NCBI GenBank assembly: GCA_045535075.1
Contig: JAZSKX010000018.1
Location: forward strand, 128,001-192,000
Direction: 5' to 3'
Source of the DNA: Candidatus Spyradenecus sp.
Lineage (GTDB): Bacteria > Verrucomicrobiota > Verrucomicrobiia > Opitutales > UBA953
Length of the DNA: 64,000 nt
Part shown: in pieces, positions 1 through 64,000 of the stretch
Layout of the letters: each line of letters opens with the position of its first letter
Numbering within the stretch: the stretch's first letter is position 1
Position numbers and translations under genes: made by a program
The notes under the pieces: model-generated
Seen by the model: only the letters and a program-made list of their open reading frames with translations
Database searches by the model: none
Told to the model about the DNA's origin: nothing

Positions 1-3000
1 CGTTGCCGAACGAAGTTGCCTGCCGAGCCGTTGCAACAGCATTATCAGCCTTCAGGCTAAAGGTTCCGACAAACTCATCGCTGTCGGCAGTCAGAATCAG
101 ACGATCCGCCAAAGCATAGTTGACCGTTCCTTCGCCTTTCAGTTCCTTACCGAAACTTCCTCCGAACGCCAAGTCAAGCTGTGCGTTACGAATCACTTCA
201 AGCGTTGTGCTCTTACGGCTATCGCCGAGCGCTCCCGCGTCTGCCAGCTTCAGCGTTCCTTCCGCGACAAGCGCGTTCCCGCCGAACATCGCATTTGAAT
301 GTGCGAGAGTCAGCGTTCCGCCGCCGGATTTTCTGAAGTCGCCCAAGCCGGAGAATGCGAGCATGAATGTAGCATCCTTAGACGAAGCCACTTCCAAAAC
401 AGCACCTTCCGCGATAGTCGTTTTCGCCGAACCGATTGCATCAACCTCCATCAATTTCAGCGTTCCCGCAGCGATATTGACGAAATCTTCCGAGGTAAAC
501 GCACTCATTTTGGAAGCAACCGTAAGAGTGCCTTCTCCGAGCTTTTCAAAGCTCCAAACCCCGTCGCCGACCTTGCCGGTGAAGACGGTATCCAAATCCG
601 CAAAGCCTGTGGCTCCGAATTTCTGCGTGTCCACGAGAAGCGTTCCCGTAGCATTCTCCGCCAAAACAAGGTCGCTTGCAAACTGCGAAGCATTATTCGC
701 AGAGAGATTCAAGCGCACCGTTGCTCCGTCCGCGAGCGTCGTCGCTCCGGTATAATCATGAGCGGAATTAAGAATCAGGCTTGCGTCTTTACCGACAGTA
801 ACCGTTCCCGCGCCCGTGATTTTATAGGAATCGGAGGCGGCGATTGTCAAATCTGCGCCGTCATTTACGCTCAACGATGTCGGAGCGACATTCGAACCGA
901 GGCTCACCGTTGCGTCGCTTGCAAAGGTAACACGGTCGGAATTCATGTAAGCCGTATCCGTTGCTTTGCTTGAGTCGTTGTTCTTCCAAGACTTTCCGTC
1001 GCCGGTCGCCCAAGTTCCTTCCGAAGCATTCCACGTCAGGCTGTAAATTTCGTTCGTAAGCGAGAGCGATCCGTTTGTGCCGAGTTCGAGGCTTGCGCGG
1101 TCAGAGAGCGCCGCGCCGGAACCGATTGTGAAGTTGCCCTTGTCGAGCGCCGTCCAACCGTCCAAAGTTGCACCGGTGTTTACATCAAAGACTTTGTAAA
1201 CGACCGTTGCCGTCTCGCCGAGAGTGTTCGGAGAGGTGTGCGTCGGATAATCATCCGCTGTGAAATCACTCAAATTGAACACTAGGGCATCGGACTTCGT
1301 AATCGTCGTCGTTCCCGTAACGATGAGCGAAGCTGCATCCTTTCCGCCGAGAACAATTGTTCCGCCGGAAAGTTCGGTTGCGCCGGCAAGCGTTACCGCC
1401 GCCGCAGAAACATCTAAAGTTCCGCCGTTCGCAGTCAACGCGTCTAACGTTGTTCCCGTAGCGGAAACCTTCAGAAGAGCCACCGCATTGTTTCCAATTT
1501 CGACATTTCCAAGCGTTCCGCCTGCCAAGTCAATATTTGCAACATTCGTTCCCGTAGCGAGCGTCAACTTTCCGATATCGGATTTCTTGAGCGTTCCCGC
1601 GCCGGAAACAGTAGCTTCAAGGGCGTAGTCATCAGCAGTGCTGAGCTCCAAAATCCCTCCGGCAACTTTCAGAGAGCCGGCGCCGGAGAGTTTTCCGGAG
1701 AGAGTCAGCGTATTGGAACGCACCTTTTCAAGCGTCGTTCCCGCCTCAAGAGAAACGGTTCCGGCGAAGCTTTGGTCCTTCAAACCTCCGAAGGAAAGCG
1801 CACCCTCCTTCACGGAAATCGAACCCGTTCCCGCGAGCGCTCCCGAAAGCGTCAACGTATTCGCTCCGATTTTTTCGAAAGCCTTGGACGCATTGACCGT
1901 AAGCGTTCCCGCAAAGCTCTGAGCGTTTGCACCGCCGACGGCAAGAGTCCCGTCCGAAACCGTAATCGCAGACTTGGAGTCGCCCTTAATTATTTCCGAG
2001 ATTGTAAACTTCTCGGAGCCGACTTTTTCGAATGTAGCCGATCCGCTAAGTTCCAGCGTTCCCGCGAAATTGCTTGCCGAATTCGCTTTGAGCGTTGCTC
2101 CCGAATCCACGGTAAGCGTTCCCGTGAGTTCGCTCACATCGCCGGAGAGCGTAGCGGATTTTGCCAAACTCAAACGTCCGTTACCGGAGAAATCGTTCTC
2201 GAATCCGGCGTCGGCGCCACCAAGCGTCACGCTACCGGAAACTTCGACGGAACTTTCACCGAACGCCTTCGCATTCTGCGCGATTGCGTTTCCGGAAACA
2301 GCCGTTTTCCCAGTGTAAGTATTCGCCTGAGTCAATGTCACGGTCCCTTCGCCCGAAAGCGTCAGCGCTGCATTATCCGGCGTCGAGCCCGTAATCACAT
2401 TGTTGACAACGACCGAGGTTTCCTTCGCCGCAGCGACTTCAAGGGTCCCGCCGGAAAGCGAAAGCGTTCCCGTGCCCAAAGCGTTTGTTTCCGAAACAAG
2501 AATCTTTCCTTCTTTGAGCGATACCGCGCCGCTGTAAGCGTTTTGGCTCGCATCCGCAGCCAATGTTCCCGCACCCAGTTTTTCGAATCCGACAGAACCG
2601 GAAAGCGTATTGGCTCCGTTGAGTGTCGCGGAGAACGAAGCGTCAATTGTATTATTCAAAACAAACGTTCCCGTTCCGGAAACTTTATTTTTAAATGTCG
2701 GGACCGCACCGGCGACGACGGAGAGCTGGAAGCTTGCCCCGTTTCCGACAGTTGTCGTTCCGCCCAAAACCGATCCGAAGCCTTTCAAAGTCAAATCGAC
2801 GTTATCGGCAACGACGATTTCTGCCGGAATGAGATTCCCGGAAATTTCGACTTCGGCGTTATTTTCGAAGCGTACGGTGTCGTAATCGGCAAACGCGATT
2901 CCGGCGCCGTCGCTCAATTCCCAGTTCATCTTCTGATTATCCCACGTTCCCGTGCTTCCGGCGTTCCAGATAATCGTTTGAGAGGTGAGCGTAATCGTTA

Positions 3001-6000
3001 CGTCGCCGCTGTTTCCGATGTCGACATTATAGTGAGCATCGATTTCTTTCCCGGAAATACGGATATCTTCAAAGCCGACCTTGTCCCAGCCGATGAGCGT
3101 AAGACCGGAGTCAAACACTTGGACGCTTGCCGTCTTTGTATTCGGATCATCCGTATCCTGCAACGACAGGTTTTGGAAGTTGAAGATGAATCCGTCGCTG
3201 ATTTCAACACTTGCCGTTCCGGTAAAGTATGCAGTCTCATGAAGGCTTTCGAGAGAGAGCGTTCCCGCTTTCAGGGCGAGAGTTCCTTCGAGAGCGACCG
3301 AATCCGCCGCCGTCACGGCAACCGTTCCCGTAGCTTTATCGAGCGTCCAATTTTTCATTGTTCCGCCGGAGACGCTTGCGCTGACGGATGCGGTCGACGT
3401 ATCCAAGTTCAACCCGGCGAGCGTTCCGCCTTCGAGAACAAAGGTTCCGTTAAATTCGCCGAGACTTGCGGATGCAATATTCATCGTTCCCGCGACTTGG
3501 CGAATATTTCCGTCTCCGCTGACAGTAGTTGCGAGAGTTGTAATCACATCATCGGCGGAAGCATTTATGAGAGAGGTGTCTTTTTCGAGTTTGACGATGC
3601 CGCTTGCCGTCGTATTGGCCGTCGGCGCGTACTTGAGAGCCGAACCGCCCGCGATTTCCGCGACGACGCTGTCGGAACCGAGCTTTCCGGCGACCGTCAA
3701 AGTTGCCTTGTCCGTCACGGCATATTTTCCGCTAAACGTATTTACCCCGCCAAGAGTCGTATCTCCCTTCGCGTTGACCGTTCCCGTGCCGGCAATAACG
3801 TTATTAACCGCAGTGGATTCTACAGCTCCCGTTTCGAGTACGCCGTCCTTAGCGATAGTAAGCGTTCCCGTGCCGAGTGCGCTGTCGCTGCCAACCTTAA
3901 GCGTTCCGCGAGCAATCGTCGTCCCGCCGGAATACGTATTTTCGCCCGAAAGCATTACCGTTCCCGTGGAGTCGAGTTTTACGGAGCCGCTGCCTTCGAT
4001 TACCTTGGAAACTTCCAAACTCGCGTCCGCATTAACGACATCCCACGCGAGCGTTCCGCCGCTAAGCTGAATGCGTTGATTCGTTTCGTTTTCGACAACA
4101 TAGCTCGTTCCCGCTCCCGAATAGCGATAAGTGGATTCTCCGCCGTTGACCGTAAATCCGACGCGCGCACTCGTTTCCGGGCTCTGCGCCGCCGTCACTT
4201 CAAGAACCGAATTTGCATTCAAACGAATGCGATCCGAATTGAAATTCGCACCGAAATTGGAACCGGCACCCCAAGCCATATTGGCAATTTTAACTGTCCC
4301 GCCGTTGACGACGAGCGTTCCGTTGCCTCCGGAATCTTCCTTACGGGAAGCCTGTGTCAAATCAAGTGTTGCGTCCGCCCCGACGGTAATCATTCCCGGA
4401 TTATTGAACGTTCCCAAGATAGCGACATTCGCGTCCGCAACGATTTTCAGATCCTTTCCATTGAAGTCCAAATTAGCGGAACTTGCCGTATTGAACGTAA
4501 GGTCGCCGCCTGCCGTAACCGCGTTAACAAAGCGGACAGTTCCGTCGTCAATCTTAATTGTACCCGGCGTAACCGTCGTATTGCACAGGAAGAACGTATT
4601 GGAACCGGTTTTGGTGAGCGTGTGTCCCGCCAAATCAAGCGTGTTGGCGCCCCATCCGCTGGAAACCATACCGAAGTTGGAAGTTCCGCCGACGGACGAA
4701 TCCGCCGTAAGCGACATTCCGCCCGCAAGCTGTTTGGAACCGTCTCCGATTTCGTCGCCGGTGTTAATCAAAGCACCGCCGGCGAGGATATAATTGCCGT
4801 AGTTCTTGTCTCGCGTTTGACCGTTCAAATCAAGCGTTCCGTTTTCGCCGATGACGACGGAAACCGTTGCCGCGCCAAGTGCAGAAGACTTGCCCAGCTT
4901 CAGCGTTCCCTCGGAAACAAGTAAAGTTCCTTCAAACCATTCTTTCTCTCCGGAAAGCACGAGCGTTCCCGCGCCGAGCTTTTCAAAGATTCCGTCACCG
5001 TAATCGTAAACCGTTCCCGCGTAGGTCGCCGTTTCGCCCTCCGAGACAGAAAGACCGAAAGCGCCTTCCTGAATTTGAACCGTTTGGAGCACTTCCGAAG
5101 CGTCGGCAGCGACAACCAATTTACCTTCGCCTTTTTTGACGATGCTTCCGCTTGTCGCGACCGTTTTTTCAAAGGCAATCGTTGCGTCTTTTACAACGGA
5201 AACTTCGCCCATGCCGGAAAGCGTCCCGGCGTCGTCGCTACTCGCGGCGAAAACAAGCTTTGCCGCCGTTCCCGCATCGTCCGCAAGCCCCGTGAAAGTA
5301 TAATTTCCGAGAACATTCAAACGCTTTGCGTTGACTTCTCCTTTAATGGTTGCGGTTTCCGTCGCGTCTGCCGCCGTTGCCATGAACTTGTACTTCCGGA
5401 GCGTCGGAGCCGCAGAATAATCTTTCCCGTTAAACTGCGAAGCCGACCAAATCTTGTCGTTTCCGGGCTCGGTCGCATCGGGATTCCAAACGAGCGTGAG
5501 ATAATTTTCGCCCGCCGTAAAAATCACATTCTTAGAGGCGTCTACGGAAATCGTTCCCGCACCCGTTCCTCCGGAGACGATAAAGTCTTCCGCCGTTCCC
5601 GCGTAATTCGTGAACAGCGTCATCGTCAGATTGTCGTCATCGAAGTCAACACCGGAAACATCAATGGTCGTCTTAGAGAAGCTGACATCCGTAAGCGCGA
5701 CACCGGAGAAGCTCGTATCAACGGACTCCGTGAAATACCAGACCCCGCCGGAAACATTCCCTTCGCCGTCTTCAACGCCGCCAAAGCTCAAATTTTTCAC
5801 ACTTCCGGAGGCTTTAACGGACACATTGCCGGTAAGTTTGATTGCATCGCTGACGCCGTCGGCTTTCGTCAGATTCCCGCCGGCAAGCGTCAATGTGCCC
5901 GAACCGACAGCGGAAGCACTCCCTACGGCAAGTGTTCCGTTTTCAAGAATCGTGCCGCCCGAATAGTTATTATTTCCGGAAAGCAAGACCGTTCCCGCGC

Positions 6001-9000
6001 CCGTAAGTTTAACGGAGCCGATTGCGGAAATCGTCTTTGCAATGTTCAAGACGGCATCCTTATCGACAACATCGAGCGTAAGCGCTTTCGAGATGTTAAT
6101 CGCTCCTCCTCCGGCATTGATATAGCTCGTTCCCGTACCGGAATAACGATAAGTTCCTTCGTTGACCGTGAGCCCGGCGGATTCGCTTCCGCTCGCCTGC
6201 GCCGCCGTTACATCGAGAACGCCGCCGTCCCTGAGGGTAATGCGATCCGAATTAAAATTCGCTCCGAAATTGGAGCCTGCGCCCCAATTCATTTTTGCCA
6301 TCTTGACCGTCCCGCCGGCGATAACGAGCGAACCGCTCCCGCCGCCGTTTTCCTTACGGGAAGCCTGCGTCAAATCAAGCACCGCGCCCTTATTAACGGT
6401 AATCGTTGCCGGGCTGTTAAAGGTTCCGGCAATGGTAACATTCGCATTTTCGAGAATCTCGAAATTCTTGCCGTTGAAGCCCAAGTTAGCAGAATCCGCG
6501 ATATTAAATGTAACGTCGCCGTCCGCTTTCAGCGTATTAACAACTTGAATGACACCTTCCTCAACCTCAATGGTCCCGGACGTAATCGTCGTGCTGGCGA
6601 GGAAGAACGTATTAGAGCCGGTCTTTGTAAGCGTGTTCCCGCCGAGCTCAAGCGTATTCGCCGCATAGCTACTGGAAATCATCCCGAAGTTTGCCGTTCC
6701 GCCGACGGACGAATCCGCCGTGAGCACAATCGTTCCCGCACCGGAGGCAATTTGAGCATTTCCGGAGCCCGTTTCAACACTTGCGGACAGCATCCCGCCG
6801 GCGAGGATGTACTTGTTGGTAGAGCCGTCCATGTTTACGGCGAGATCTAAAACGGCACCGTTGCCGACCGTAATCAAGCCGCTTCCCAAAGCATTCTTAT
6901 TCGTAATTTTCAGCGTTCCGTCGCTGACGAGCGTTCCGCCGGAATAATTTTGGGCAGACGAAAGTTCGAGCGTTCCCGCACCGAGTTTCTCAAAACTACC
7001 GGAGCCGGAAATCGTTCCCGCAAACGTCACCGTTCCGTCTGCGACGCTGAGTCCGAACGCGCCTTCCGCAATATTGACAGAGTCAAAGACTCCGGTAGCA
7101 TCTGCCGCGACGACAAACGTTCCCGCGCCTTCCTTGGCCAGCGCCCCGCTCGTCGCAATCGTTTTGTCGAAAGTAAGGGTTTTTCCTTCGTCAACCGTTA
7201 CCTTGCCGTCAATTGTCAGCGCCGAGGTTTCTGCCGTTCCCGTCGAAAGGGTCGCGCTTTCCGTTGCCGTAATGCTTCCGACAACAATATTTCCGGCAAC
7301 CGTAACATTTGCATTCGCAGAACCGAATGTAACGGAGTCGCCGTTTTCGAAAGTCGTTGTTCCGCCGGCAGCCTGGCTTGCCCAAAGCGTTGCGCCGCGA
7401 TTTTCCCATTTTGCATCCGCGGAATCCTGCCAGATCAAATCCGTATAAACTTTCTTCACCAAGTCGAGAACCAGCTTGTTGTCCTCAACGGAGAATACCG
7501 CACTCGCGCGGGAAGAAGTTTCGCCGCCGAAAGAAAGGTTGCTTTCACTCAGAGCGGAAGTATCTAAATTGAGCGTTCCCGCGCTGATAAGTTCGTAGGT
7601 TCCGCTGGAGAAATTCGCAGCAAAATCGAATTTGATGTCGGAGCTCAAATCTGCGGTCCCCGCCACCGAATACGCCGTTCCCGTGAAAACGGAACCGAAC
7701 GCGAGTGTTGCCCCGGAAGCCAAAGTCAAATCTCCTGCCGAGACGGAGGCATCCCCGCGCCCGAGCGTCGCGCCGGAAGCAACCGAAACCGTTCCCGTGC
7801 CAAGCGCGGAAGCACTTCCCGCGACAAGTTTGCCCGCCGAAACGCTTATGTTGCCGTCGAGCGTATTTTCACCCGAAAGCGTGATTGTTCCCGTCGAATT
7901 GACGACGATTTCGCCGCTTCCCGAAAGTGCATTTGCGAAATTGCCGCTTCCGGCGGAAAATTCCAAGGTTGCGCCGGATTCAACGGCAAGCGCGCCCGTA
8001 CCGAGCGCCGTCGCCGAAGCCGCGATAAGTTTGCCTTCCGCAACCGTTCCGCCCTTAATCCAGTAGCGATTATCGCCGGAAAGCTTCATCGTTCCCGCGC
8101 CGGTTTTGGTAAGAGCAGTCTGCACATCCGGTTGTTGGGTGTAAATCTGTCCGTAATTGGTCAGCCAACCGGAAACTTCCAAATCAACACCGTCTGCCGT
8201 CGTTCCCTTGGCAACGTTGAAGGTCCCGTTTTTACGCAAGCCGATAGTTGCAGAAATAAGCGCCGTAGTATCGGAAGCCAACGTTGTGATTCCCTGATTA
8301 GAATCATAAAGGTCGATCTTGGAATTTTCACCGCTTACGCCGGCAGTTCCCGTAACTTTACCGCCTTTAAGCGTAATTCCTCCGGTAAACGTCTGATTTT
8401 GTCCGCCGCTCGGCGTTGCATCTGTTTCAATGCGCAATTCCCCGCCTTCGTTAACAATGAGCGATGTAATCGCGGTGGCGCCTCCGCCCCAGCCGGTCGC
8501 ATCACCGGCAGTCAGGCGGACAAGCCCTCCGTCATTGACCGTTACGGTCCCGCGGAGCACGCTGGACTGCCCGCCGGCTGCAAGAGTGAGCTCTGCGTTT
8601 TCAACCGTTATTCCGTTTGTCGCAGTCGTCTCGCCGCCGGAGAAATTCGCCGTTCCGCCGGAAATTTTCAAGGTTCCGACCGTATTTGTTCCGCCGGAAA
8701 CGGCAAGAGAGCCTTCCGAAACTTGGAGCGTTCCGTCAAATCCGAAGCCGGAAAGAGAAATCGTTCCCGCGCCGATTTTTTCAAGCGTTCCCGAGCCCGA
8801 GAACATCGAAGGCAAGGCGACACTTTGATCCGCGCTTACCGAGAAGCCGAGCGTCGCGCCTTCCGAAATTTCCGCCATAATTGCGGACTTCAAAGACTCT
8901 GCAGACAGAAGATTGACGCGGCCTTCCGTAATTTGAGCGCTTGAGAACAGCGATGCTGCCGCGCCGGACAACTCGAGCGTTCCCGTGCCCGCTTTTTTAA

Positions 9001-11989
9001 GCAAGCCCGTCGTTCCCAAAGAAGCATCGATCGTTGCCGTTTTCCCGTCGGCGACCGTGAGTGCTGTTCCCGCCGCCAACGCCAAAGATGCCCCGCTGTC
9101 GGCAACTGCCGTAAACGTTACATTTTCATTAACGATAATTCCGCCCGGCTGAACCGCGCCTTCGACGGCAACGCTCGCTCCTGCGGTATTAAAGATAACC
9201 GTGTCGCCGTTTTCAAATTTCGGGGTCGCTCCGGTTTCCGTCGCAATTTGACTGCTCCAAAGCGTATCGCCCTGATATTTCCAAGTCGCGCCGTTTCCGC
9301 CGATCCAAGTCAAATCCGTGAAGACCGGCTTGGCGAGTTCGAGCTTCAGGACGTTCCCGTCCAAGACAAAGACCGCTCCGACGCGCTCTGTCGCCGCCAG
9401 CCCGCCGAAAAGCAGGTTGTTGCGGTTCATCGTATTGACATCCGTCGCCGTAATACCGTTGAGCGTCGCGCCTTCCGCCAGGATGTAGGTGATTTTTTCT
9501 GCACCGCCGAGAGCCGGAGACAAATCAAAAATCATTCCCTTGTCGAGAGTCAGCGTTCCCGTAGTCGTCAAAGCCGCCGTATCCGTCGAAAGCATTCCGA
9601 GCGAAAGAGTCGACCCGCTCGAAGCCGAAAGGGAAGGAAGGGTAAGTGAATCCAAAGCCTGAGCGTCCAAGGTTCCGGCAGAAAGAACGACGCCTCCCGT
9701 TCCCAGGGCGTTCGAGTTTCCGACAACCAACGTCCCGCCGGAAATTTCCGTTCCGCCGGTGTAGGTGTTATTACCCGAGAGCGTCAGCGTTCCCGCGCCC
9801 GTTTTAATGAGAGAACCTTCTCCGGAGATAATGCCGGAAAGAGAAACCTCTGAGCCGGTGTTCGCAGAAACAACCTTATTTTTGTCGTCAAATTTAAGTT
9901 TTCCGGTGTCAACAGTCGTCGCGCCTCCCAAGGTCAGATTCCTTGAAGAGCTCCATGCGTCGGCGAGAGAACCGATGGTCGCACTTCCCTTGAGTTCGAC
10001 AGAAAGAATATTGCTGTCGGAAATGCCTCCCGCTCCGACATTAATACGCCCGCCTTCGTGAACGTGAAGACGAACGACTCCTGTGTTGTTTCCCGAATCG
10101 GCAACCACTACGCCGGTATTGAAATTCGCTTCTCCGTAAACATTAATATCGCCGTTCCCGTCTTTATTGCTGATTCCGGCGTTCAACAAAGAAAGCGTCC
10201 CCCAAACGTTTACTGTTTGCGTTGCGCCCCAATGCCCTAATTGGAAAGAACCTTCGTTCCCGCCGGTGGAATTGGAACTTCCGGTAATAGTCAACGAACC
10301 GTCTTCACGAATATTCAACGTTCCCGCAGAGCTACCGCGCGACGTGCCGACATACTGCGTTCCTACGGCATCCCCCCAAATCTTTACCGTTCCGCCGGTT
10401 TGGAAAAGGCTGCCGAAAGTCGTCGAATCACCGCCGAAGGTTGTCGTATTTCCGACATAAACGGAAGTTGTTTCATCTCCGACGAAATTGCCTTCAAACG
10501 TTGTCGTTCCCTGTTCAAACGAAAACGACGCATCTTTAAGCAAGGTAAAATCATTTTCAAAGGTGAGATTCCCGCCACCGCGCTGTTTATTCACACCTTC
10601 TCCGTTGTAGTTAGTCATCGCTCCCTGCACTTCGAACAGTTGCGAGTACGAAACCGTTTCTCCGGTCCAAATATAAGTGCTCGCGAGAATAACTTTTTTA
10701 GTTCCTCCCAATTCGGAGTCTCTGGGAAGATTTGCATTCCCGGAGACCTGTAAGGTTCCTTCAAACCCGCTTCCCAACTTAATTCCGGCAGAATGGTTTG
10801 AAGGTTGCGCATTGAAGATGATTTTCCCCGTTCCCGTAATTGAGGAAACATCCGTTTTCGCCGAAGTCAAATTACCCAAGTTTATCGCGCCGTCTCCGTC
10901 AACCGACACCGAGCCGGTAAATTTTGCAAGCGACGACAAATCGGCTTTCAAGACACCTCCGGTTACGGAAACATTCCCGCTCGCCGAAACATTCCCGCTG
11001 ACGTTCCCGCCATTCGTAAACGTTAAATCGTTGCCGATGTTGAGTGTCGCCGAGCCTCCCGCCCGAATAACTCCCGGTCCGATAAGTGTAATTTTATTGC
11101 CGGACAGCGTTAGTGCGCCGCTCCCCGCGACTGTAATCGCATCCGTCGTAATCGCAGTTCCCGTAACATTAACCGCAGTGTCTGCCGACACATCAAACGC
11201 CGCATACGTTCCCGCTTCCGCAGTAGAATTCGTCCACGGAGTAGAGCCAATAGCCGTATCCGTCCAATTTGTCGCAGTCCCGCTAAGAGAAACGTTCGTT
11301 GCCGTTCCCGTATAGGTGTTGACGACCTGAATCCCGGAAAGCGTCGCACGATTCGATGTCGAACGCTCGTTTGTGAGAGAAACAAACCCGGAGACACCGG
11401 AAACCTTCAGGGCATTCGTCCCCAAAACTAAATTGTCGGAATAATCTCGACTTCCCCAAGCTCCGCTTCCTTCAACGGAACCGTTGGTTGCATCACCCTT
11501 ATAAAATGTCCCGTTTACGGAAACCGCACCGTATTTTCCGCCGTCCCCGGACAAATAAACGTAAACATCACAAACCAGGAATGTTGAATTAATATCAACG
11601 TTCCACGAACCAAGCCCCCAATTCGCCAAGTCATAGTACGAACCTTGAAGCGAACGGATTACCGTTCCGTTCGACCCGTATGGTCCCCAAGTTGCGAAGT
11701 CGCTTCGTGCGGTAACCGAAGCACCTTCAATCAGCGTCCCGTCGTAATTTTTAAGAGCGACTGTTTGTTGAGCGTTCCCGTTGACATTCGCCCAACCCGC
11801 TGCGCCAACCGCAGTCTGCACCCCGCCGTTATCGTAGGTCGCAAGCCCCGCCGTTCCCGTCATCGAATCCGTAATCGCATTTCCGGAATTCCCAAAATTG
11901 ATACTGATGATTTCTCCTGCGGCATGCGCAGTTGCCGTCATAGCGGCGGCGGCAAAAAGGGTCGTTAAGAAAAACTTGGGATTTTTCAT
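1..11989 (-). CDS. Giant secreted beta-helical autotransporter-passenger-like adhesin with PATR-type repeats (3' end outside window, about 4000 aa or more)
   Basis: ATG at 11989 gives MKNPKFFLTTLFAAAAMTATAHA (signal peptide). The same frame reads sensibly at position 1, and no minus-strand ORF in this frame terminates in the track. Repeated KxGxGTLxLSGxNxYxGGT motifs; rich in G/T/A/S. Confidence 0.88.
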   Translation of the reverse strand, partial: MKNPKFFLTTLFAAAAMTATAHAAGEIISINFGNSGNAITDSMTGTAGLATYDNGGVQTAVGAAGWANVNGNAQQTVALKNYDGTLIEGASVTARSDFATWGPYGSNGTVIRSLQGSYYDLANWGLGSWNVDINSTFLVCDVYVYLSGDGGKYGAVSVNGTFYKGDATNGSVEGSGAWGSRDYSDNLVLGTNALKVSGVSGFVSLTNERSTSNRATLSGIQVVNTYTGTATNVSLSGTATNWTDTAIGSTPWTNSTAEAGTYAAFDVSADTAVNVTGTAITTDAITVAGSGALTLSGNKITLIGPGVIRAGGSATLNIGNDLTFTNGGNVSGNVSASGNVSVTGGVLKADLSSLAKFTGSVSVDGDGAINLGNLTSAKTDVSSITGTGKIIFNAQPSNHSAGIKLGSGFEGTLQVSGNANLPRDSELGGTKKVILASTYIWTGETVSYSQLFEVQGAMTNYNGEGVNKQRGGGNLTFENDFTLLKDASFSFEQGTTTFEGNFVGDETTSVYVGNTTTFGGDSTTFGSLFQTGGTVKIWGDAVGTQYVGTSRGSSAGTLNIREDGSLTITGSSNSTGGNEGSFQLGHWGATQTVNVWGTLSLLNAGISNKDGNGDINVYGEANFNTGVVVADSGNNTGVVRLHVHEGGRINVGAGGISDSNILSVELKGSATIGSLADAWSSSRNLTLGGATTVDTGKLKFDDKNKVVSANTGSEVSLSGIISGEGSLIKTGAGTLTLSGNNTYTGGTEISGGTLVVGNSNALGTGGVVLSAGTLDAQALDSLTLPSLSASSGSTLSLGMLSTDTAALTTTGTLTLDKGMIFDLSPALGGAEKITYILAEGATLNGITATDVNTMNRNNLLFGGLAATERVGAVFVLDGNVLKLELAKPVFTDLTWIGGNGATWKYQGDTLWSSQIATETGATPKFENGDTVIFNTAGASVAVEGAVQPGGIIVNENVTFTAVADSGASLALAAGTALTVADGKTATIDASLGTTGLLKKAGTGTLELSGAAASLFSSAQITEGRVNLLSAESLKSAIMAEISEGATLGFSVSADQSVALPSMFSGSGTLEKIGAGTISLSGFGFDGTLQVSEGSLAVSGGTNTVGTLKISGGTANFSGGETTATNGITVENAELTLAAGGQSSVLRGTVTVNDGGLVRLTAGDATGWGGGATAITSLIVNEGGELRIETDATPSGGQNQTFTGGITLKGGKVTGTAGVSGENSKIDLYDSNQGITTLASDTTALISATIGLRKNGTFNVAKGTTADGVDLEVSGWLTNYGQIYTQQPDVQTALTKTGAGTMKLSGDNRYWIKGGTVAEGKLIAASATALGTGALAVESGATLEFSAGSGNFANALSGSGEIVVNSTGTITLSGENTLDGNISVSAGKLVAGSASALGTGTVSVASGATLGRGDASVSAGDLTLASGATLAFGSVFTGTAYSVAGTADLSSDIKFDFAANFSSGTYELISAGTLNLDTSALSESNLSFGGETSSRASAVFSVEDNKLVLDLVKKVYTDLIWQDSADAKWENRGATLWASQAAGGTTTFENGDSVTFGSANANVTVAGNIVVGSITATESATLSTGTAETSALTIDGKVTVDEGKTLTFDKTIATSGALAKEGAGTFVVAADATGVFDSVNIAEGAFGLSVADGTVTFAGTISGSGSFEKLGAGTLELSSAQNYSGGTLVSDGTLKITNKNALGSGLITVGNGAVLDLAVNMDGSTNKYILAGGMLSASVETGSGNAQIASGAGTIVLTADSSVGGTANFGMISSSYAANTLELGGNTLTKTGSNTFFLASTTITSGTIEVEEGVIQVVNTLKADGDVTFNIADSANLGFNGKNFEILENANVTIAGTFNSPATITVNKGAVLDLTQASRKENGGGSGSLVIAGGTVKMAKMNWGAGSNFGANFNSDRITLRDGGVLDVTAAQASGSESAGLTVNEGTYRYSGTGTSYINAGGGAINISKALTLDVVDKDAVLNIAKTISAIGSVKLTGAGTVLLSGNNNYSGGTILENGTLAVGSASAVGSGTLTLAGGNLTKADGVSDAIKLTGNVSVKASGSVKNLSFGGVEDGEGNVSGGVWYFTESVDTSFSGVALTDVSFSKTTIDVSGVDFDDDNLTMTLFTNYAGTAEDFIVSGGTGAGTISVDASKNVIFTAGENYLTLVWNPDATEPGNDKIWSASQFNGKDYSAAPTLRKYKFMATAADATETATIKGEVNAKRLNVLGNYTFTGLADDAGTAAKLVFAASSDDAGTLSGMGEVSVVKDATIAFEKTVATSGSIVKKGEGKLVVAADASEVLQTVQIQEGAFGLSVSEGETATYAGTVYDYGDGIFEKLGAGTLVLSGEKEWFEGTLLVSEGTLKLGKSSALGAATVSVVIGENGTLDLNGQTRDKNYGNYILAGGALINTGDEIGDGSKQLAGGMSLTADSSVGGTSNFGMVSSGWGANTLDLAGHTLTKTGSNTFFLCNTTVTPGTIKIDDGTVRFVNAVTAGGDLTFNTASSANLDFNGKDLKIVADANVAILGTFNNPGMITVGADATLDLTQASRKEDSGGNGTLVVNGGTVKIANMAWGAGSNFGANFNSDRIRLNANSVLEVTAAQSPETSARVGFTVNGGESTYRYSGAGTSYVVENETNQRIQLSGGTLAWDVVNADASLEVSKVIEGSGSVKLDSTGTVMLSGENTYSGGTTIARGTLKVGSDSALGTGTLTIAKDGVLETGAVESTAVNNVIAGTGTVNAKGDTTLGGVNTFSGKYAVTDKATLTVAGKLGSDSVVAEIAGGSALKYAPTANTTASGIVKLEKDTSLINASADDVITTLATTVSGDGNIRQVAGTMNIASASLGEFNGTFVLEGGTLAGLNLDTSTASVSASVSGGTMKNWTLDKATGTVAVTAADSVALEGTLALKAGTLSLESLHETAYFTGTASVEISDGFIFNFQNLSLQDTDDPNTKTASVQVFDSGLTLIGWDKVGFEDIRISGKEIDAHYNVDIGNSGDVTITLTSQTIIWNAGSTGTWDNQKMNWELSDGAGIAFADYDTVRFENNAEVEISGNLIPAEIVVADNVDLTLKGFGSVLGGTTTVGNGASFQLSVVAGAVPTFKNKVSGTGTFVLNNTIDASFSATLNGANTLSGSVGFEKLGAGTLAADASQNAYSGAVSLKEGKILVSETNALGTGTLSLSGGTLEVAAAKETSVVVNNVITGSTPDNAALTLSGEGTVTLTQANTYTGKTAVSGNAIAQNAKAFGESSVEVSGSVTLGGADAGFENDFSGNGRLSLAKSATLSGDVSELTGTLTVDSGATLKANSASNFAGTLELSGSATFEKVGSEKFTISEIIKGDSKSAITVSDGTLAVGGANAQSFAGTLTVNASKAFEKIGANTLTLSGALAGTGSISVKEGALSFGGLKDQSFAGTVSLEAGTTLEKVRSNTLTLSGKLSGAGSLKVAGGILELSTADDYALEATVSGAGTLKKSDIGKLTLATGTNVANIDLAGGTLGNVEIGNNAVALLKVSATGTTLDALTANGGTLDVSAAAVTLAGATELSGGTIVLGGKDAASLIVTGTTTITKSDALVFNLSDFTADDYPTHTSPNTLGETATVVYKVFDVNTGATLDGWTALDKGNFTIGSGAALSDRASLELGTNGSLSLTNEIYSLTWNASEGTWATGDGKSWKNNDSSKATDTAYMNSDRVTFASDATVSLGSNVAPTSLSVNDGADLTIAASDSYKITGAGTVTVGKDASLILNSAHDYTGATTLADGATVRLNLSANNASQFASDLVLAENATGTLLVDTQKFGATGFADLDTVFTGKVGDGVWSFEKLGEGTLTVASKMSAFTSEDFVNIAAGTLKLMEVDAIGSAKTTIAEGAVLEVASSKDATFMLAFSGLGDFRKSGGGTLTLAHSNAMFGGNALVAEGTLKLADAGALGDSRKSTTLEVIRNAQLDLAFGGSFGKELKGEGTVNYALADRLILTADSDEFVGTFSLKADNAVATARQATSFGN
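3900..7000 (-). repeat. Internal duplication in the giant ORF (about 3900-4960 vs about 5940-7000, offset about 2.0 kb)
   Basis: Near-identical DNA blocks, e.g. atgcgatccgaatt(g/a)aaattcgc(a/t)ccgaaattgga, ccttacgggaagcctg(t/c)gtcaaatcaag, gccgacggacgaatccgccgt. Confidence 0.85.
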
Positions 11990-12367
11990 AAGTAGAATTG
12001 AGTAACTTGGGTGATTGCAAAGAGTTTCTGAGCGCGGAATACACCGCATATTGGCGAATAGGATGCAAGCTTCTATGAAATTTCGCAATAAAATTTCGTT
12101 CCCGCGCGGGCAAACGGGAGAGTTCTCCGTCGCCGAAAGGTCTTTGGAATTAACTTCGATTAAACCGCTTTTGCTCGCTAACGCTCCGCCGAAAATCAAA
12201 ACACATGAATTCTCCAAAATTCCGCAAGCAAGTCGTTAGGCGCGTAGAAATTGAACGAATCGGAGTTAAAAAATCTTAAGAACTCAACGATTCGTCCCAA
12301 TCGAAGCTCTCGTTCGAGATTTTAATTTATTCTCCGGGCATTTTTTTGATATGCTCGGGTGTTTATT

Positions 12368-13559: not shown

Positions 13560-13595
13560 AAAGCGTTCCCGCGAAATGAATCACGGGAACGCTTT
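13560..13595. terminator. Bidirectional intrinsic terminator built from an inverted motif pair
   Basis: aaagcgttcccg-N12-cgggaacgcttt between convergent tgt and the lipoprotein gene. Confidence 0.8.
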
Positions 13596-15473: not shown

Positions 15474-15517
15474 ACAAAAAAGCGTTCCCGCCGGCTTCGA
15501 CGGGAACGCTTTTTTGT
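15474..15517. terminator. Bidirectional terminator built from an inverted motif pair
   Basis: acaaaaaagcgttcccg-ccggcttcga-cgggaacgcttttttgt between convergent genes. Confidence 0.85.
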
Positions 15518-25380: not shown

Positions 25381-25422
25381 AAAAAAGGCGTTCCCGTGAT
25401 TATTTCGCGGGAACGCCTTTTT
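25381..25422. terminator. Bidirectional terminator built from an inverted motif pair
   Basis: aaaaaaggcgttcccgtga-ttatt-tcgcgggaacgccttttt. Confidence 0.85.
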
Positions 25423-25716: not shown

Positions 25717-25751
25717 AAAAACGTTCCCGCGACTTTCGCCACGGGAACGCT
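25715..25751 (-). terminator. Terminator of the PEP-CTERM gene, built from an inverted motif pair
   Basis: aaaaaaacgttcccgcga...cacgggaacg. Confidence 0.8.
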
Positions 25752-48672: not shown

Positions 48673-48718
48673 ATAAAAAAAAACGTTCCCGTGATTGGTT
48701 CGCGGGAACGTTTTTTAT
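48673..48718. terminator. Bidirectional terminator built from an inverted motif pair
   Basis: aaaaaaacgttcccgtga...tcgcgggaacgtttttt. Confidence 0.85.
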
Positions 48719-50411: not shown

Positions 50412-50539
50412 AAATTATATTTTTTAAAGGTTTTTAAAAATGCCGTGCGTCAAAAATCGCAAAGCGGAAGATTGTTTTTTCGGGAACGTTCCCGTAAGTT
50501 CGGCGTTGAAAAGCGGTCGCCTAAGCCGCAGAAAAAAGC

Positions 50540-51600: not shown

Positions 51601-51640
51601 AAAAAAACGTTCCCGCAAGATGCTTTACGGGAACGTTTTT
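51601..51640. terminator. Bidirectional terminator built from an inverted motif pair
   Basis: aaaaaaacgttcccgcaa...ttacgggaacgttttt. Confidence 0.85.
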
Positions 51641-55946: not shown

Positions 55947-55957
55947 AATTCAAATAT

Positions 55958-62418: not shown

Positions 62419-64000
62419 ATGTCCTCCATTATGGAACAGCTGCTCGCAGAAAGCGGCAGTCTTAACTCACTCATTCCGGGCTCGATCGTTAAGGGCACGG
62501 TTATCGAAATCCGCGACAACAGCGTTGTTGTCGATATCGGCGGAAAATCCGAAGGTGTCATTCCCGCAAACGAATTTGCGGATGTCAGCGAAATCCAAAT
62601 CGGCGACGAAATCGAAGTTTATTTGGAAAAAGCGGAAGATCGTAGCGGCGCTCCCGTCATCTCCTACGACAAAGCCCAACAGAAGAAAAACTGGGAAACA
62701 ATTGTCGCTGAATGCAAGGAAGGCTCTGTTATGCCCGGCCGCGTCAAAGCTAAGGTCAAAGGCGGACTCATCGTTTCGATGGGTATTGACGCGTTCCTTC
62801 CGGCTTCGCAAATCGACGTTCAGCCGCCGAAGAATCTCGACCAGTACATCGGTCAGACCTACGACTTTAAAATTCTCAAAATCAACCTGGAACGCAAAAA
62901 TCTCGTCATTTCGCGCCGCGAACTGATCGAAGAACAGCGCAACGAAAAGCGCCGCGCGCTTCTCGAAGAAGTTAAGCCGGGTGATATCCGCCGCGGTGTC
63001 GTCAAAAACATCACCGACTACGGAGCGTTCGTTGACCTCGACGGTCTCGACGGGCTTCTCCACATCACCGACATGAGCTGGGGCCGCATCTCGCACCCGA
63101 GCGAAGTTCTCAAAGTCGGCGAAGAAATCGACGTGATGATTATCGAAATCGATCGCGACCGCGAACGCGTTTCGCTCGGGCTCAAGCAATGCACGAGCAA
63201 TCCGTGGGATTCGATTGAAAAGAAATACCCGGTCGGCGCGAAAGTTCACGGTAAAGTCGTCAACCTCGTTCAGTACGGCGCGTTTGTCGAACTCGAACAA
63301 GGTGTTGAAGGCCTCGTTCACGTCACGGAACTTTCTTGGACGAAGCGCATCACAAAACCGTCTGATGTTCTCAAAATCGGGCAGGAAGTTGACGCTGTTA
63401 TCCTCGGCATCAACAAGGAAGAACAAAAGATTTCTCTCGGCATCCGTCAGCTCGAACAAAATCCGTGGGAAATGGTTCGCCACAACTACCCGGTCGGCGC
63501 TCGCGTTCACGGGAAAGTTCGCAACCTCACGACCTTCGGCGCATTCGTCGAACTCGAAGAAGGCATCGACGGCATGGTTCACGTTTCCGACATGAGCTGG
63601 ACGCGCCACATCAACCACCCGGGCGAAATGCTCAAGAAGGGTGACGAAGTCGAAGCCATTGTTCTTGATGTTGATGCGGACCAACAACGCATCGCCCTCG
63701 GTATCAAGCAGACGCAAGACGACCCGTGGGATGACATCGATCGCAAGTTCCACATCGGCGACATCGTTTCCGGCAAGGTTTCCAAGATTGCGAACTTCGG
63801 TGCCTTCATCGAACTCGCCGACGAAATCGACGGTCTTGTCCACATTTCGCAGATCAGCGAAGAACGCGTTGAAAAAATCAAAGACGTTCTCAAACTCGGC
63901 CAGGAAGTTTCGGCTCGCGTTATCAAAATCGACAAGGACGAACGCCGCATCGGGCTTTCCATCAAGGCAGCAAACTACGACCCGGCGCAACTCCAAGCGG
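62419..64000 (+). CDS. rpsA: 30S ribosomal protein S1 (3' end outside window)
   Basis: ATG at 62419: MSSIMEQLL...VVDIGGKSEG, AFLPASQID, YGAFVDLDGLDGLLHITDMSWGR; repeated S1 domains. Confidence 0.95.
   Translation, partial: MSSIMEQLLAESGSLNSLIPGSIVKGTVIEIRDNSVVVDIGGKSEGVIPANEFADVSEIQIGDEIEVYLEKAEDRSGAPVISYDKAQQKKNWETIVAECKEGSVMPGRVKAKVKGGLIVSMGIDAFLPASQIDVQPPKNLDQYIGQTYDFKILKINLERKNLVISRRELIEEQRNEKRRALLEEVKPGDIRRGVVKNITDYGAFVDLDGLDGLLHITDMSWGRISHPSEVLKVGEEIDVMIIEIDRDRERVSLGLKQCTSNPWDSIEKKYPVGAKVHGKVVNLVQYGAFVELEQGVEGLVHVTELSWTKRITKPSDVLKIGQEVDAVILGINKEEQKISLGIRQLEQNPWEMVRHNYPVGARVHGKVRNLTTFGAFVELEEGIDGMVHVSDMSWTRHINHPGEMLKKGDEVEAIVLDVDADQQRIALGIKQTQDDPWDDIDRKFHIGDIVSGKVSKIANFGAFIELADEIDGLVHISQISEERVEKIKDVLKLGQEVSARVIKIDKDERRIGLSIKAANYDPAQLQA

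What the first reader, a model, noticed from the sequence alone, without database searches (positions are those of the whole stretch)
1..64000. Hyper-abundant non-palindromic motif (G)CGTTCCCG(C): candidate DNA uptake sequence in a PVC bacterium
Seen: about 220-230 exact GTTCCCG/CGGGAAC copies by manual count (about 3.5 per kb; roughly 8-10 expected by composition), mostly extended to CGTTCCCG or GCGTTCCCGC, plus many 1-mismatch variants. It occurs on both strands and in different reading frames (xGT, VP, RSR, FP, RER, GN) and in intergenic DNA, so it is not merely an amino-acid artefact. Known: this is how Neisseria DUS and Pasteurellaceae USS behave, while cyanobacterial HIP1 is comparably dense but palindromic. 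Inference: a self-DNA recognition signal for natural transformation, or another protein-bound/recombination signal, that I do not know to be described in Verrucomicrobiota. No competence gene is visible in this window.
Basis: partly seen in the sequence, partly recalled or inferred. Interest (0 to 1): 0.9.

Follow-up and report, generated by a model that had tools for sequence, protein, structure and literature searches.

The report
Genus-wide self-DNA word, uptake-sequence-like
An uncultured gut bacterium and its whole genus carry thousands of copies of one short DNA word that looks and behaves like the 'uptake sequences' by which a few bacteria recognise their own DNA, which would be the first such case outside Proteobacteria, though its function is untested.

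Summary
GTTCCCG/CGGGAAC occurs 230 times in the window against 14.4 expected. CGTTCCCG occurs 5,159 times in the 1.95-Mb genome (2.6 per kb, 2.1% of the DNA). It survives a synonymous-codon null about 10-fold, occurs in all six frames, and is denser in intergenic DNA. The consensus is (G)CGTTCCCG(C/T)(G/A), with no further flanks.

Replication polarity equals that of composition-matched words (55.1% against 55.4%), so it is not Chi- or KOPS-like. 169 inverted pairs form bidirectional intrinsic terminators. Prophage and restriction-modification islands lack the word. Among 301 genomes of the order, only this genus ('Candidatus Spyradenecus', Opitutales) has it.

Sites are ancient: 41.8% of distant-congener sites persist in this genome, against a 10% baseline. 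In the closest relative retention is 10.7%, at baseline, so the maintaining force has been switched off there.

No methyltransferase family tracks the word. RecC co-occurs with the genus, but its Chi pocket does not co-vary with the word. ComEC, DprA, PilT, a secretin and prepilins are present everywhere; ComEA was not found.

Best reading, at about 0.45: a DUS/USS-like uptake or self-recognition signal. The receptor is unknown and the function is unproven.

The parts
1..64000 (.). 230 copies of GTTCCCG/CGGGAAC (195 of the 8-mer CGTTCCCG, 64 of the 10-mer GCGTTCCCGC), dispersed through housekeeping genes and spacers
   Evidence: The window genes are ordinary (Tgt, HisG, UvrA, PolA, XerD, LeuA/B, NuoJ/L, RpsA).
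2..12217 (-). Giant PATR-repeat (autotransporter-type beta-strand repeat) gene with 61 copies of CGGGAAC on its coding strand. 53 are in one frame, and 52 of these encode AGT or TGT.
   Evidence: ORF of 4,072 aa, open at the window edge; PF12951 PATR, 8 stretches, E 1e-25; frames and peptides.
13565..13590 (.). Inverted motif pair forming a terminator-type hairpin between convergent genes (tgt on + and a gene on -), flanked by an A-run and a T-rich stretch
   Evidence: sequence; flanking genes; class statistics.
15484..15507 (.). Inverted motif pair, a bidirectional terminator-type hairpin between hisG (+) and the thymidine phosphorylase gene (-)
25390..25414 (.). Inverted motif pair directly downstream of the aminotransferase gene (24203-25366, +), with A-run and T-run flanks
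25723..25748 (.). Inverted motif pair in the spacer upstream of 25783-26475 (-)
48685..48709 (.). Inverted motif pair between 48102-48659 (+) and leuA (48735-50411, -), with A8 and T6 flanks
51609..51634 (.). Inverted motif pair downstream of 50710-51525 (+)
50481..50494 (.). Two abutting copies in opposite orientation, forming the 14-base palindrome CGGGAACGTTCCCG

Best explanation
The word (G)CGTTCCCG(C/T)(G/A) is a genus-wide 'self-DNA' signal that works like the DNA uptake(-enhancing) sequences of Neisseriaceae and Pasteurellaceae.

Shown here: it is an asymmetric 8-10-mer kept at 0.8 (10-mer) to 2.6 (8-mer) copies per kb on both strands. It is written into genes in all frames, mainly through codon choice. 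It is used in inverted pairs as the stems of bidirectional intrinsic terminators. It is missing from imported DNA. It is restricted to one genus. It is held at orthologous positions over long evolutionary distances by a force that has been switched off in at least two sub-lineages.

Inferred: a component of the DNA-acquisition route prefers fragments that carry the word. That component would be surface or periplasmic binding by a type IV pilus protein, or a step just after entry. Alleles that carry the word are then transmitted more often by homologous recombination between strains. This molecular drive fills every permissive site, including terminator stems, where one hairpin holds two copies.

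Where the specificity factor is lost the word decays to baseline, even though the generic machinery (ComEC, DprA, PilT, secretin, pilins) stays. The receptor is not identified.
For: Enrichment: 230 against 14.4 in the window. 5,159 copies of the 8-mer genome-wide; the next unrelated 8-mer has 1,228. About 10-fold over a synonymous-codon null. The 10-mer occurs 1,614 times against 8 for the reversed-word control.

Anatomy: no conserved flanks beyond +/-2 bases. All six frames. Intergenic 3.22 per kb against coding 2.55 per kb.

No polarity: 55.1% (2,272 of 4,123) against 55.4% for composition-matched words.

Terminators: 169 convergent pairs at 13-22 bp against 31 divergent. 144 of the 169 are intergenic. 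Only 3 lie between divergent genes, although 189 of 1,003 spacers are of that type. 110 of 169 have T-rich tails.

Clade restriction: 19 of 19 genomes of the genus are above control (138-3,301 copies). 0 of 22 other genomes and 0 of 288 exceed 66 copies.

Foreign DNA lacks it: the largest motif-free gaps are restriction-modification loci, and a prophage is motif-poor.

Ancient, actively kept sites: of 335 distant-clade sites, 41.8% are exact in G000 against a 10.1% control.

Density is lower in the most conserved genes.

Machinery is present: ComEC, DprA, a secretin, PilT (437 bits against a cut-off of 319), 2 PilB/GspE and 7 prepilins. One 141-aa pilin has a globular part shared by 18 of 18 congeners, with only N-terminal-helix matches outside the genus apart from one genome.

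Benchmarks for known uptake sequences come from sections 3, 11 and 13 of bioRxiv 10.1101/2025.10.24.684340: 9-10 nt, 10-mer observed/expected ratios of 15.7-65, up to about 2% of the chromosome, inverted repeats in terminators, absence from recently acquired genes. All are matched.
Against: No uptake or transformation experiment exists, and the organisms are known only as MAGs.

A canonical ComEA was not found. The HHH_3 hits in 39 of 41 genomes are long Tex-like frames.

The listing (23 papers, titles and abstract starts only) shows no report of natural transformation in Verrucomicrobia.

The lineages in which the word decays keep intact ComEC, PilT, DprA, the secretin and all seven prepilin genes. 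So there is no loss-of-competence signature, and no candidate receptor emerges from the natural experiment.

Spacing is Poisson-like (CV 1.09), not unusually even.

No dialects were found: low-count congeners carry the same word, only more thinly.

RecC co-occurs with the genus (19 of 19 against 4 of 22), which leaves a post-entry, RecBCD-linked alternative open.
Confidence: 0.45

Rival explanations
1. Hyper-Chi. The word is the Chi-type signal read by the genus's RecBCD. It marks self DNA and protects motif-bearing linear DNA from degradation. Incoming or broken DNA with the word therefore recombines more often, and that gives the drive.
For: G000 encodes RecC (PF04257, 199 bits) and a RecB-like PD-(D/E)XK ORF. 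RecC was found in 19 of 19 genomes of the genus but in only 4 of 22 outside it, at 26-31% identity. The word is an asymmetric 8-mer and is absent from prophage and restriction-modification islands. A 2024 preprint suggests a Chi-like role for HIP1 (abstract only).
Against: There is no replication polarity beyond composition: 55.1% against 55.4%. E. coli Chi is 75% on the leading strand, 4-8-fold enriched and occurs once per 4.5 kb (passages of PMC5959072). Here enrichment is at least 10-fold even over a conservative null, and density is about 12 times higher. RecC is intact in the decaying lineages. At the equivalents of the published Chi-recognition residues, G000 is identical to low-density G002 and G013, and G001 differs at one position. 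High-density species that share the word differ from each other there: Y/A/P/F, D/K/N and R/S/N. The genus-level co-occurrence is a single evolutionary event. Terminator-forming inverted pairs are not, to my recollection, a Chi feature.
Confidence: 0.15
2. HIP-like. The word is created and kept by a modification-linked process, such as a methyltransferase plus a biased mismatch repair as modelled for HIP1, or it is kept by selection for a chromosome-structure role.
For: Density and fold-enrichment are in the HIP1 range of 15-300-fold, with sites conserved between genomes (abstract of PMC5861425). HIP frequency falls in lineages that lose the cognate enzyme (abstract of PMC4390886), which resembles the on/off pattern seen here. 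G000 has an MmeI-family enzyme; such enzymes, by my recollection, read asymmetric sites of this shape.
Against: The word is not palindromic. No methyltransferase tracks it. The MmeI-like enzyme was found in 8 of 18 congeners and not in several of the richest genomes. The long C5 enzyme has 1 orthologue, and 10 of 18 congeners have no C5 match at all. The Dam type was found in 10 of 19 genomes: not in 8 high-density genomes, but present in 3 low-density ones. The N6/N4 type was not found in high-density G000, G004 and G006. Vsr was not found. G000's own methyltransferase genes sit in or beside motif-free, apparently imported DNA. No single transition neighbour of the word is strongly depleted (a weak test).
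Confidence: 0.15
3. Binding site of an unknown genus-specific DNA-binding protein, for example a nucleoid-associated or segregation factor, kept by ordinary selection on each site and not by a transmission bias.
For: Site-specific conservation is four times the baseline. Maintenance switches off abruptly in a sub-lineage. The word is restricted to one genus.
Against: Selection on any one of about 5,000 sites would be minute. Abundance is highest where sequence is least constrained, which is what a drive filling permissive sites predicts. There is no preferred spacing apart from the hairpins. No candidate protein was found among the genes missing or broken in the held 62.5% of G013.
Confidence: 0.12
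4. Artefact of codon or amino-acid usage, a repeated protein motif, or a dispersed mobile element (REP/MITE).
For: 61 of the window's 230 copies come from one repeat protein and encode (A/T)GT or xGN.
Against: The synonymous-codon null gives 167 and 294 against 1,684 and 2,559 observed. Intergenic density is higher than coding density. All six frames are used. No sequence is conserved beyond 2 bases on either side in 5,158 aligned copies.
Confidence: 0.01

Closest known systems
Neisseriaceae DNA uptake sequence (DUS, 10-12-mer; receptor ComP, a minor type IV pilin)
   Same: An asymmetric short word with thousands of copies on both strands. The 10-mer density (0.83 per kb in G000, 1.9 per kb in G003) is of the same order. 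Inverted pairs act as terminators. It is restricted to one clade and absent from recently acquired DNA. A type IV pilus with a PilT retraction ATPase, ComEC and DprA are present.
   Different: The sequence and the phylum are unrelated. No dialects were seen. Most copies are inside genes. ComEA was not found. No ComP homologue is identifiable beyond generic prepilins. Uptake bias is untested. Two sub-lineages have lost maintenance of the word while keeping their pilus and competence genes.
Pasteurellaceae uptake signal sequence (USS, 9-mer core; receptor long unknown, ComN recently predicted)
   Same: Most copies are in coding DNA, with frame and orientation bias. Copies accumulate in less conserved sequence. 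Inverted pairs sit in terminators. Sites are kept at orthologous positions. The receptor cannot be found by homology.
   Different: There is no AT-rich flanking segment: information ends 2 bases outside the core. Density is two- to three-fold higher at the core level. The taxon is uncultured, so no competence phenotype is known.
Cyanobacterial HIP1 (GCGATCGC) and alternate HIPs
   Same: An 8-mer at one or more copies per gene with tens- to hundreds-fold enrichment. Sites are conserved between genomes. Some lineages have lost it. There is a possible link to transformation efficiency (2024 preprint, abstract).
   Different: HIPs are palindromes and track cognate orphan methyltransferases. This word is asymmetric, and no methyltransferase family tested tracks it.
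Chi (RecBCD/AddAB recombination hotspot)
   Same: An asymmetric 8-mer that is over-represented and rare in foreign DNA. RecC is present throughout the genus.
   Different: Chi is 4-8-fold enriched, occurs about once per 4.5 kb and is 75% co-oriented with replication in E. coli (PMC5959072 passages). This word is far more enriched, about 12 times denser, unpolarised, and does not co-vary with the RecC pocket.

Membership tests
DNA uptake(-enhancing) sequences (DUS/USS) | Short non-palindromic word, hundreds to thousands of copies, at least about 15-fold over expectation | tested here: met
   5,159 copies of the 8-mer and 1,614 of the 10-mer in 1.95 Mb. 230 against 14.4 in the window. About 10-fold over a synonymous-codon null. 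1,614 against 8 for the reversed word.
DNA uptake(-enhancing) sequences (DUS/USS) | Both orientations, no replication polarity; coding (biased frames) and intergenic | tested here: met
   55.1% against 55.4% for composition-matched words. All six frames, with two dominant. Intergenic 3.22 per kb against coding 2.55 per kb.
DNA uptake(-enhancing) sequences (DUS/USS) | Intergenic inverted-repeat pairs that form intrinsic terminators | tested here: met
   169 convergent against 31 divergent pairs. 144 of 169 are intergenic, 3 lie between divergent genes, and 110 of 169 have T-rich tails. Terminator activity itself was not measured.
DNA uptake(-enhancing) sequences (DUS/USS) | Shared by a clade of related species, with dialects between clades | tested here: inconclusive
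   Clade restriction is met: 19 of 19 genomes of the genus, and 0 of 288 other genomes of the order, are above background. Dialects were not found: low-count congeners carry the same word more thinly.
DNA uptake(-enhancing) sequences (DUS/USS) | Enriched in long-resident core DNA, absent from recently acquired DNA | tested here: met
   The largest motif-free gaps coincide with restriction-modification loci. The prophage at G000:C16:183-219 kb is motif-poor. 41.8% orthologous retention against a 10.1% control.
DNA uptake(-enhancing) sequences (DUS/USS) | Complete natural-competence machinery (retractile type IV pilus, secretin, ComEA, ComEC, DprA) | tested here: inconclusive
   ComEC, DprA, a secretin, PilT, 2 PilB/GspE and 7 prepilins are present. 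ComEA was not found: the only strong HHH_3 hit is a Tex-like 787-aa protein. These genes also occur in motif-free genera.
DNA uptake(-enhancing) sequences (DUS/USS) | A sequence-specific receptor (ComP/ComN-type minor pilin) | tested here: inconclusive
   Prepilins match only generic or sub-threshold models. A 141-aa pilin is shared full-length by 18 of 18 congeners. Outside the genus I found only N-terminal-helix matches, apart from G029 at 38% identity. It is retained at 90-91% in low-density species.
DNA uptake(-enhancing) sequences (DUS/USS) | Preferential uptake or transformation by DNA carrying the word | not testable with these tools
   The organisms are known only as MAGs.
Chi sites | Co-orientation with replication beyond base composition | tested here: not met
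   2,272 against 1,851 (55.1%). Composition-matched words pooled give 55.4%. 56.5% of 301 such words are at least as skewed.
Chi sites | Cognate RecBCD/AddAB present, with a recognition pocket that goes with the sequence | tested here: not met
   RecC is present. But pocket-equivalent residues are the same in maintaining and decaying species, and differ among species that share the word. The mapping rests on a 26-30%-identity alignment to E. coli RecC, so it is approximate.
Highly iterated palindromes (HIP1 and alternates) | Palindromic word | tested here: not met
   CGTTCCCG and its complement CGGGAACG are different words.
Highly iterated palindromes (HIP1 and alternates) | Cognate methyltransferase whose presence tracks the word's abundance | tested here: not met
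   MmeI-like enzyme in 8 of 18 congeners. C5 type: 10 of 18 without any match. PF02086 in 10 of 19 genomes with the wrong pattern. PF01555 not found in three high-density genomes. Type I HsdM is retained at 93% in low-density G013. An unknown enzyme family cannot be excluded.
KOPS/AIMS-type polar motifs | Strong leading-strand polarity | tested here: not met
REP/MITE-type dispersed repeats | A longer conserved unit around the core | tested here: not met
   Information content is at most 0.03 bit per position beyond 3 bases outside the 8-mer, in 5,158 aligned copies.

The most novel reading that the evidence does not exclude
The word is the recognition signal of a self-DNA discrimination system of a kind not yet described. 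It would not be pilin-mediated uptake of the ComP/ComN type, nor methylation-linked like HIP1, nor RecBCD-Chi. It arose once at the base of 'Candidatus Spyradenecus' and has been switched off at least twice within the genus. That leaves matched on/off species pairs from which the responsible gene could be found by complete comparative genomics.
Probability: 0.2. Interest if true: 0.9.

Novelty: new member of a known kind. Interest (0 to 1): 0.78.

Why it matters
According to the 2025 survey I read (sections 3, 11 and 13), sequence-specific self-DNA uptake signals are known from only two proteobacterial families. My searches found no description of this word, of any uptake sequence in Verrucomicrobia, or of any genome-biology study of this genus (listings only).

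A third, unrelated case would matter for three reasons. It lies in an uncultured, animal-gut Verrucomicrobiota genus, at a density at or above the known ones. It would show that such signals evolve repeatedly. It would imply species-restricted recombination in a gut commensal lineage.

The case also comes with a natural experiment that the classic systems lack. Close relatives differ cleanly in whether the word is maintained: 41.8% against 10.7% retention, with a 10% baseline. So the open question of which protein reads the signal becomes directly testable by comparative genomics and by simple binding assays.

In practice, the word could serve as a genus marker in metagenomes, as a flag for imported DNA, and possibly as an aid to genetic manipulation once a member is cultured.

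Tried and rejected
1. Literature search by the sequence itself returned only primer coincidences.

2. A dialect in G014. Its sample is dominated by CACCACCAACCC, but the copies are clustered at the ends of short contigs. It is a local repeat, not a dispersed word.

3. The MmeI-family enzyme as reader or writer of the word. It was attractive because the word's shape fits that family, by my recollection. It was rejected on distribution.

4. The C5, Dam-type and N6/N4 methyltransferases and Vsr as drivers were rejected.

5. Loss of competence genes as the cause of decay was rejected for ComEC, PilT, DprA, the secretin and all 7 prepilins.

6. A change in RecC specificity as the cause of decay was rejected.

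7. Systematic search for what G013 lacks. In that part:
   - The clean syntenic absence with native motif density encodes ankyrin and outer-membrane proteins.
   - The only genes that looked broken are a lipase-like secreted protein and an artefact of my ORF calling at a FolC-type gene.
   - 424 further G000 genes without a hit could not be annotated in bulk, because they lie outside any referable locus.
   So a driver in the unseen 37.5% is not excluded.

8. Even spacing, reported for USS by my recollection, was not seen (CV 1.09).

9. A very-short-patch repair signature among one-mismatch neighbours: none is obvious, but the Markov expectation is contaminated by the word itself.

10. Phages sharing the word: only 3 viral contigs hold the hairpin form, and none carries further copies above background.

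11. The scan's earlier notes held nothing on this genome or topic.

Not attempted: structure prediction of the pilins, sequencing-run or read analysis, and any test for DNA phosphorothioation genes (the GAAC/GTTC core is, by my recollection, a Dnd motif).

Full report
**Observation.** The window holds 230 exact copies of GTTCCCG/CGGGAAC. Dinucleotide-preserving shuffles give 14.4 +/- 3.8, and none of 100 exceeded 22. Most copies extend further: 195 to CGTTCCCG, 120 to CGTTCCCGC and 64 to GCGTTCCCGC. The window is G000:C5:128001-192000 of a 1.95-Mb assembly in 18 contigs, 99.45% complete. It encodes ordinary housekeeping genes: Tgt, HisG, UvrA, PolA, XerD, LeuA/B, NuoJ/L and RpsA.

One caveat applies to the window. 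61 of the 230 copies lie in a single giant PATR-repeat gene at 2-12217 on the minus strand. All 61 are in one orientation. 53 are in one frame, and 52 of these encode AGT or TGT. The other 51.8 kb still carries 3.26 copies per kb.

**Genome-wide enrichment and nulls.** CGGGAAC is the commonest 7-mer (6,528 copies). CGTTCCCG is the commonest 8-mer (5,159 copies, 2.65 per kb, 2.1% of all bases); the next unrelated 8-mer has 1,228. GCGTTCCCGC is the commonest 10-mer, with 1,614 copies. Density is 2.4-3.2 per kb on every contig longer than 17 kb except one of lower GC, which has 1.97.

I made approximate gene calls: 1,420 genes covering 85% of the genome. Shuffling synonymous codons within each gene keeps every protein and each gene's codon usage. 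In 30 replicates this gave 167 CGTTCCCG (largest 191) and 294 CGGGAACG (largest 326), against 1,684 and 2,559 observed. Shuffling codon order gave 69 and 80. The first null is conservative, because the word has already shaped codon usage.

**Anatomy.** Aligning 5,158 copies gives G (47%) before the 8-mer, C (63%) or T (25%) after it, and then G (44%) or A (29%). Further out, no position carries more than about 0.03 bit, so there is no longer unit and no REP/MITE.
- Of the 5,159 copies, 4,237 lie inside called genes (2.55 per kb), 919 in spacers (3.22 per kb) and 3 on gene edges.
- All six frames are used. Two dominate: xCG-GGA-ACG, mostly Ala/Thr-Gly-Thr (1,463 copies), and xxC-GTT-CCC-G, Val-Pro (1,149 copies).
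- CGGGAACG is on the coding strand in 60% of genic copies. By its abstract, van Passel 2008 reports such an orientation bias for known uptake sequences.

*Polarity.* I oriented 78 bins of 20 kb by the sign of their GC skew. The G-rich form lies on the G-rich strand 2,272 times against 1,851 (55.1%). Words of identical base composition give 55.4% pooled (n = 43,694), and 56.5% of the 301 such words with enough copies are at least as skewed. Spacer copies give 53.2%. So there is no Chi- or KOPS-like polarity.

*Spacing.* The spacing of neighbouring copies is Poisson-like (CV 1.09), apart from one feature.

**Terminators.** Convergent pairs (GTTCCCG ... CGGGAAC) are strongly over-represented at 13-22 bp start-to-start. 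There are 169, with a peak of 58 at 19 bp, against 31 divergent pairs over the same range.
- 144 of the 169 pairs are intergenic.
- 59 lie between convergent genes, and 45 and 40 between co-directional genes.
- Only 3 lie between divergent genes, although 189 of the 1,003 spacers are of that kind.
- 101 have an A-rich 5' flank and 110 a T-rich 3' flank.

The typical form is AAAAAA-GCGTTCCCG(C/T)G-loop-C(G/A)CGGGAACGC-TTTTTT. Six such hairpins lie in the window. These are bidirectional intrinsic terminators by sequence. Termination itself was not measured.

**Distribution among genomes.** Among G000's 40 nearest relatives, all 18 other species of the genus carry the 10-mer far above the reversed-word control: 138-3,301 copies against 8-35. 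The 22 genomes from 20 other genera have 0-49 copies, like the control. In a wider sample of 301 genomes (121 genera) of the order, only the 13 genomes of the genus exceed 100 copies (341-3,301). The other 288 have at most 66.

Record titles of close relatives read 'Candidatus Spyradenecus sp.' or 'Opitutales bacterium', and all are MAGs from animal guts.

Within the genus, density varies:
- 4.4 per kb in a 200-kb sample of G003;
- 0.65 per kb in G001 (119 kb) and in G013 (1.32 Mb);
- about 0.3 per kb in G014 (87 kb).

The low-count species use the same word, so no dialect was found. A different abundant word in G014 is a clustered repeat at contig ends.

**Age and maintenance.** In a PolA codon alignment, all 7 of G000's sites are shared with at least 3 of 6 distant high-density sequences (67-68% protein identity). 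4 of the 7 are shared with all six. In the two closest sequences (85% identity) those four sites carry versions degraded by one to four changes, and outgroups have unrelated sequence there.

By PilT identity, G000's nearest relatives are G001, G002 and G013 (97%), all low-density. G014, also low-density, is more distant at 89%.

Genome-scale, I used the 62.5% of G013 that I could obtain, plus samples of the distant clade:
- Of 257 G000 sites in 85 genes, 143 are exact in the distant clade, and G013 keeps 35 of those 143.
- The unbiased version starts from 335 distant-clade sites. The exact word is present in G000 at 41.8% and in G013 at 10.7%. Flanking non-motif 8-mers are identical at 10.1% and 9.8% (n = 633).

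A word-specific maintaining force therefore acts in G000's lineage and is entirely absent in G013's.

Over all aligned genes, G013 keeps 444 of 2,424 G000 sites. Where the sites differ, the peptide is unchanged in 42.4% of cases, against 48.2% in control windows. So the word is held mostly by codon choice, with a small excess of amino-acid differences. Density falls from 2.8-2.9 per kb in genes below 88% identity to 2.0 per kb in genes of 94% or more (741 genes; Spearman -0.18, p = 1e-6). That is as expected if the word fills permissive sites.

**Foreign DNA.** The largest motif-free gaps coincide with both C5-methyltransferase loci, with DNA next to the MmeI-like gene, and with a type I system. 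A 36-kb region at G000:C16:183-219 kb has 0.3-1.4 copies of the 7-mer per kb, against a genome average of 3.35. It encodes a terminase large subunit, a portal protein and a Mu-type transposase, so it is a prophage. Only 3 contigs of the viral collection hold the hairpin form, and none has further copies above background.

**Machinery.**
- *Competence.* G000 has ComEC (570 aa, no lactamase domain detected), DprA, one secretin of the Akkermansia type-IV-pilus kind, PilT, two PilB/GspE ATPases and seven prepilin-like genes, four of them in one operon. ComEA was not found: the strong HHH_3 hit is a Tex-like protein. The same holds for 39 of 41 genomes of the order sample. ComEC and PilT are intact in 41 of 41 genomes, including motif-free genera and low-density species.
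- *G013.* It keeps DprA, the secretin and all seven prepilins.
- *The 141-aa pilin.* It has full-length orthologues in 18 of 18 congeners. Outside the genus I found only N-terminal-helix matches, apart from one genome. It tracks the word at genus level but not within the genus.
- *Methyltransferases.* None tracks the word, and Vsr was not found.
- *RecBCD.* RecC is present in 19 of 19 genomes of the genus and in only 4 of 22 outside it. I mapped it onto E. coli RecC, using the Chi-recognition residues listed in PMC5959072 (passages). At those positions G000 is identical to low-density G002 and G013, and G001 has one change. High-density species that share the word differ from each other there. 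The alignment is distant, so the mapping is approximate.

**What G013 lacks.** In the held 62.5%, 971 G000 genes have counterparts, at a median identity of 82.5%. The one clean syntenic absence with native motif density encodes an ankyrin protein and small outer-membrane proteins. No DNA-handling gene is broken. The remaining 37.5% could not be examined, so the factor that was switched off is still unknown.

**Comparison and verdict.** Against the benchmarks of the 2025 survey of uptake-enhancing sequences, this word meets every sequence-level criterion. It is as dense as the classic cases (10-mer) or denser (8-mer).
- It fails the defining features of Chi/KOPS (polarity).
- It fails those of HIP (palindromy, cognate methyltransferase; abstracts).
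- It fails that of REP/MITE (a longer unit).

What it lacks is any functional evidence, a ComEA, and a receptor. I therefore read it as a new, third-lineage member of the uptake-sequence kind by anatomy. I put about 0.45 on an uptake or entry-linked drive, 0.15 on a RecBCD-linked hyper-Chi, 0.15 on a modification or repair process, and about 0.12 on a selected protein-binding site. The remainder is for something not yet imagined.

I found no prior description. Those searches cover open-access full text only, and I read only the listings.

Noticed in passing
window 2-12217 (-), continuing beyond the window start: A giant PATR-repeat (autotransporter-type) protein gene: 4,072 aa inside the window and about 4,790 aa by my ORF call. 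Its repeated (A/T)GT tripeptides are almost always written with the abundant word.
   Followed up: partly
G000:C2:15779-18766 (outside the window; L022:250-3237): A complete MmeI-family type IIL restriction-modification enzyme with all five MmeI domains, next to a 3.6-kb motif-free gap. It is patchy in the genus (8 of 18 congeners), and the closest orthologue, in G001, has an in-frame TAA.
   Followed up: yes
G000:C16:183000-219000 (outside the window): A Mu-like prophage (terminase large subunit, portal, transposase) with three- to ten-fold lower motif density than the rest of the genome. A Dam-type methyltransferase hit lies at its right end (C16:218681-220103).
   Followed up: partly
L033-L042 (G014 contigs C1-C10): Many G014 contigs of 5.7-6.1 kb begin and end with clusters of CACCACCAACCC-type repeats, 81 copies in 87 kb. 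These may be assembly breakpoints at a clustered repeat of unknown nature.
   Followed up: partly
G000:C2:9601-13044 (L186) and relatives L187-L207: RecC was found in all 19 genomes of the genus but in only 4 of 22 other genomes of the order sample. This suggests that RecBCD was gained at or near the base of the genus.
   Followed up: partly
41 genomes: A ComEA-sized HHH_3 protein was found in only 2 of 41 genomes of this order (G029, G036). Nearly all other hits are long Tex-like proteins, yet ComEC and DprA are universal.
   Followed up: no
G000:C12:72737-80372 (outside the window): A type I system whose HsdM (93%) and HsdR (88%) are conserved with G013, while the specificity subunit between them is only 32% identical. 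This points to a swapped HsdS.
   Followed up: no
G000:C12:62498-70359 (outside the window): A 7.9-kb cluster with native motif density: an 845-aa ankyrin-repeat protein plus six small lipoprotein or beta-barrel-like genes. It is precisely absent from G013, with a 20-bp gap between the flanking orthologues.
   Followed up: partly
G000:C5:229430-234723 (outside the window): A 5.3-kb stretch with no copy of the word, absent from the syntenic place in G013 (4-bp gap). It is probably a recent insertion. Its content was not examined.
   Followed up: no
L053-L060 (G019, sister genus): The top 8-mers of the motif-free sister genus include CGGGCACG and CGGGTACG, about 0.25 per kb each and about 5-fold over a simple expectation. 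They differ from the word at one position. This could be chance or a faint relative.
   Followed up: no
window 42863-45651 (-): Two adjacent genes, of 449 and 471 aa, each with a weak ClpP/SppA-like serine-protease domain in the C-terminal half. They lie next to xerD.
   Followed up: no
whole assembly G000: An exact match to a universal 16S primer was not found in any contig, so the rRNA operon is probably unassembled in this MAG.
   Followed up: no
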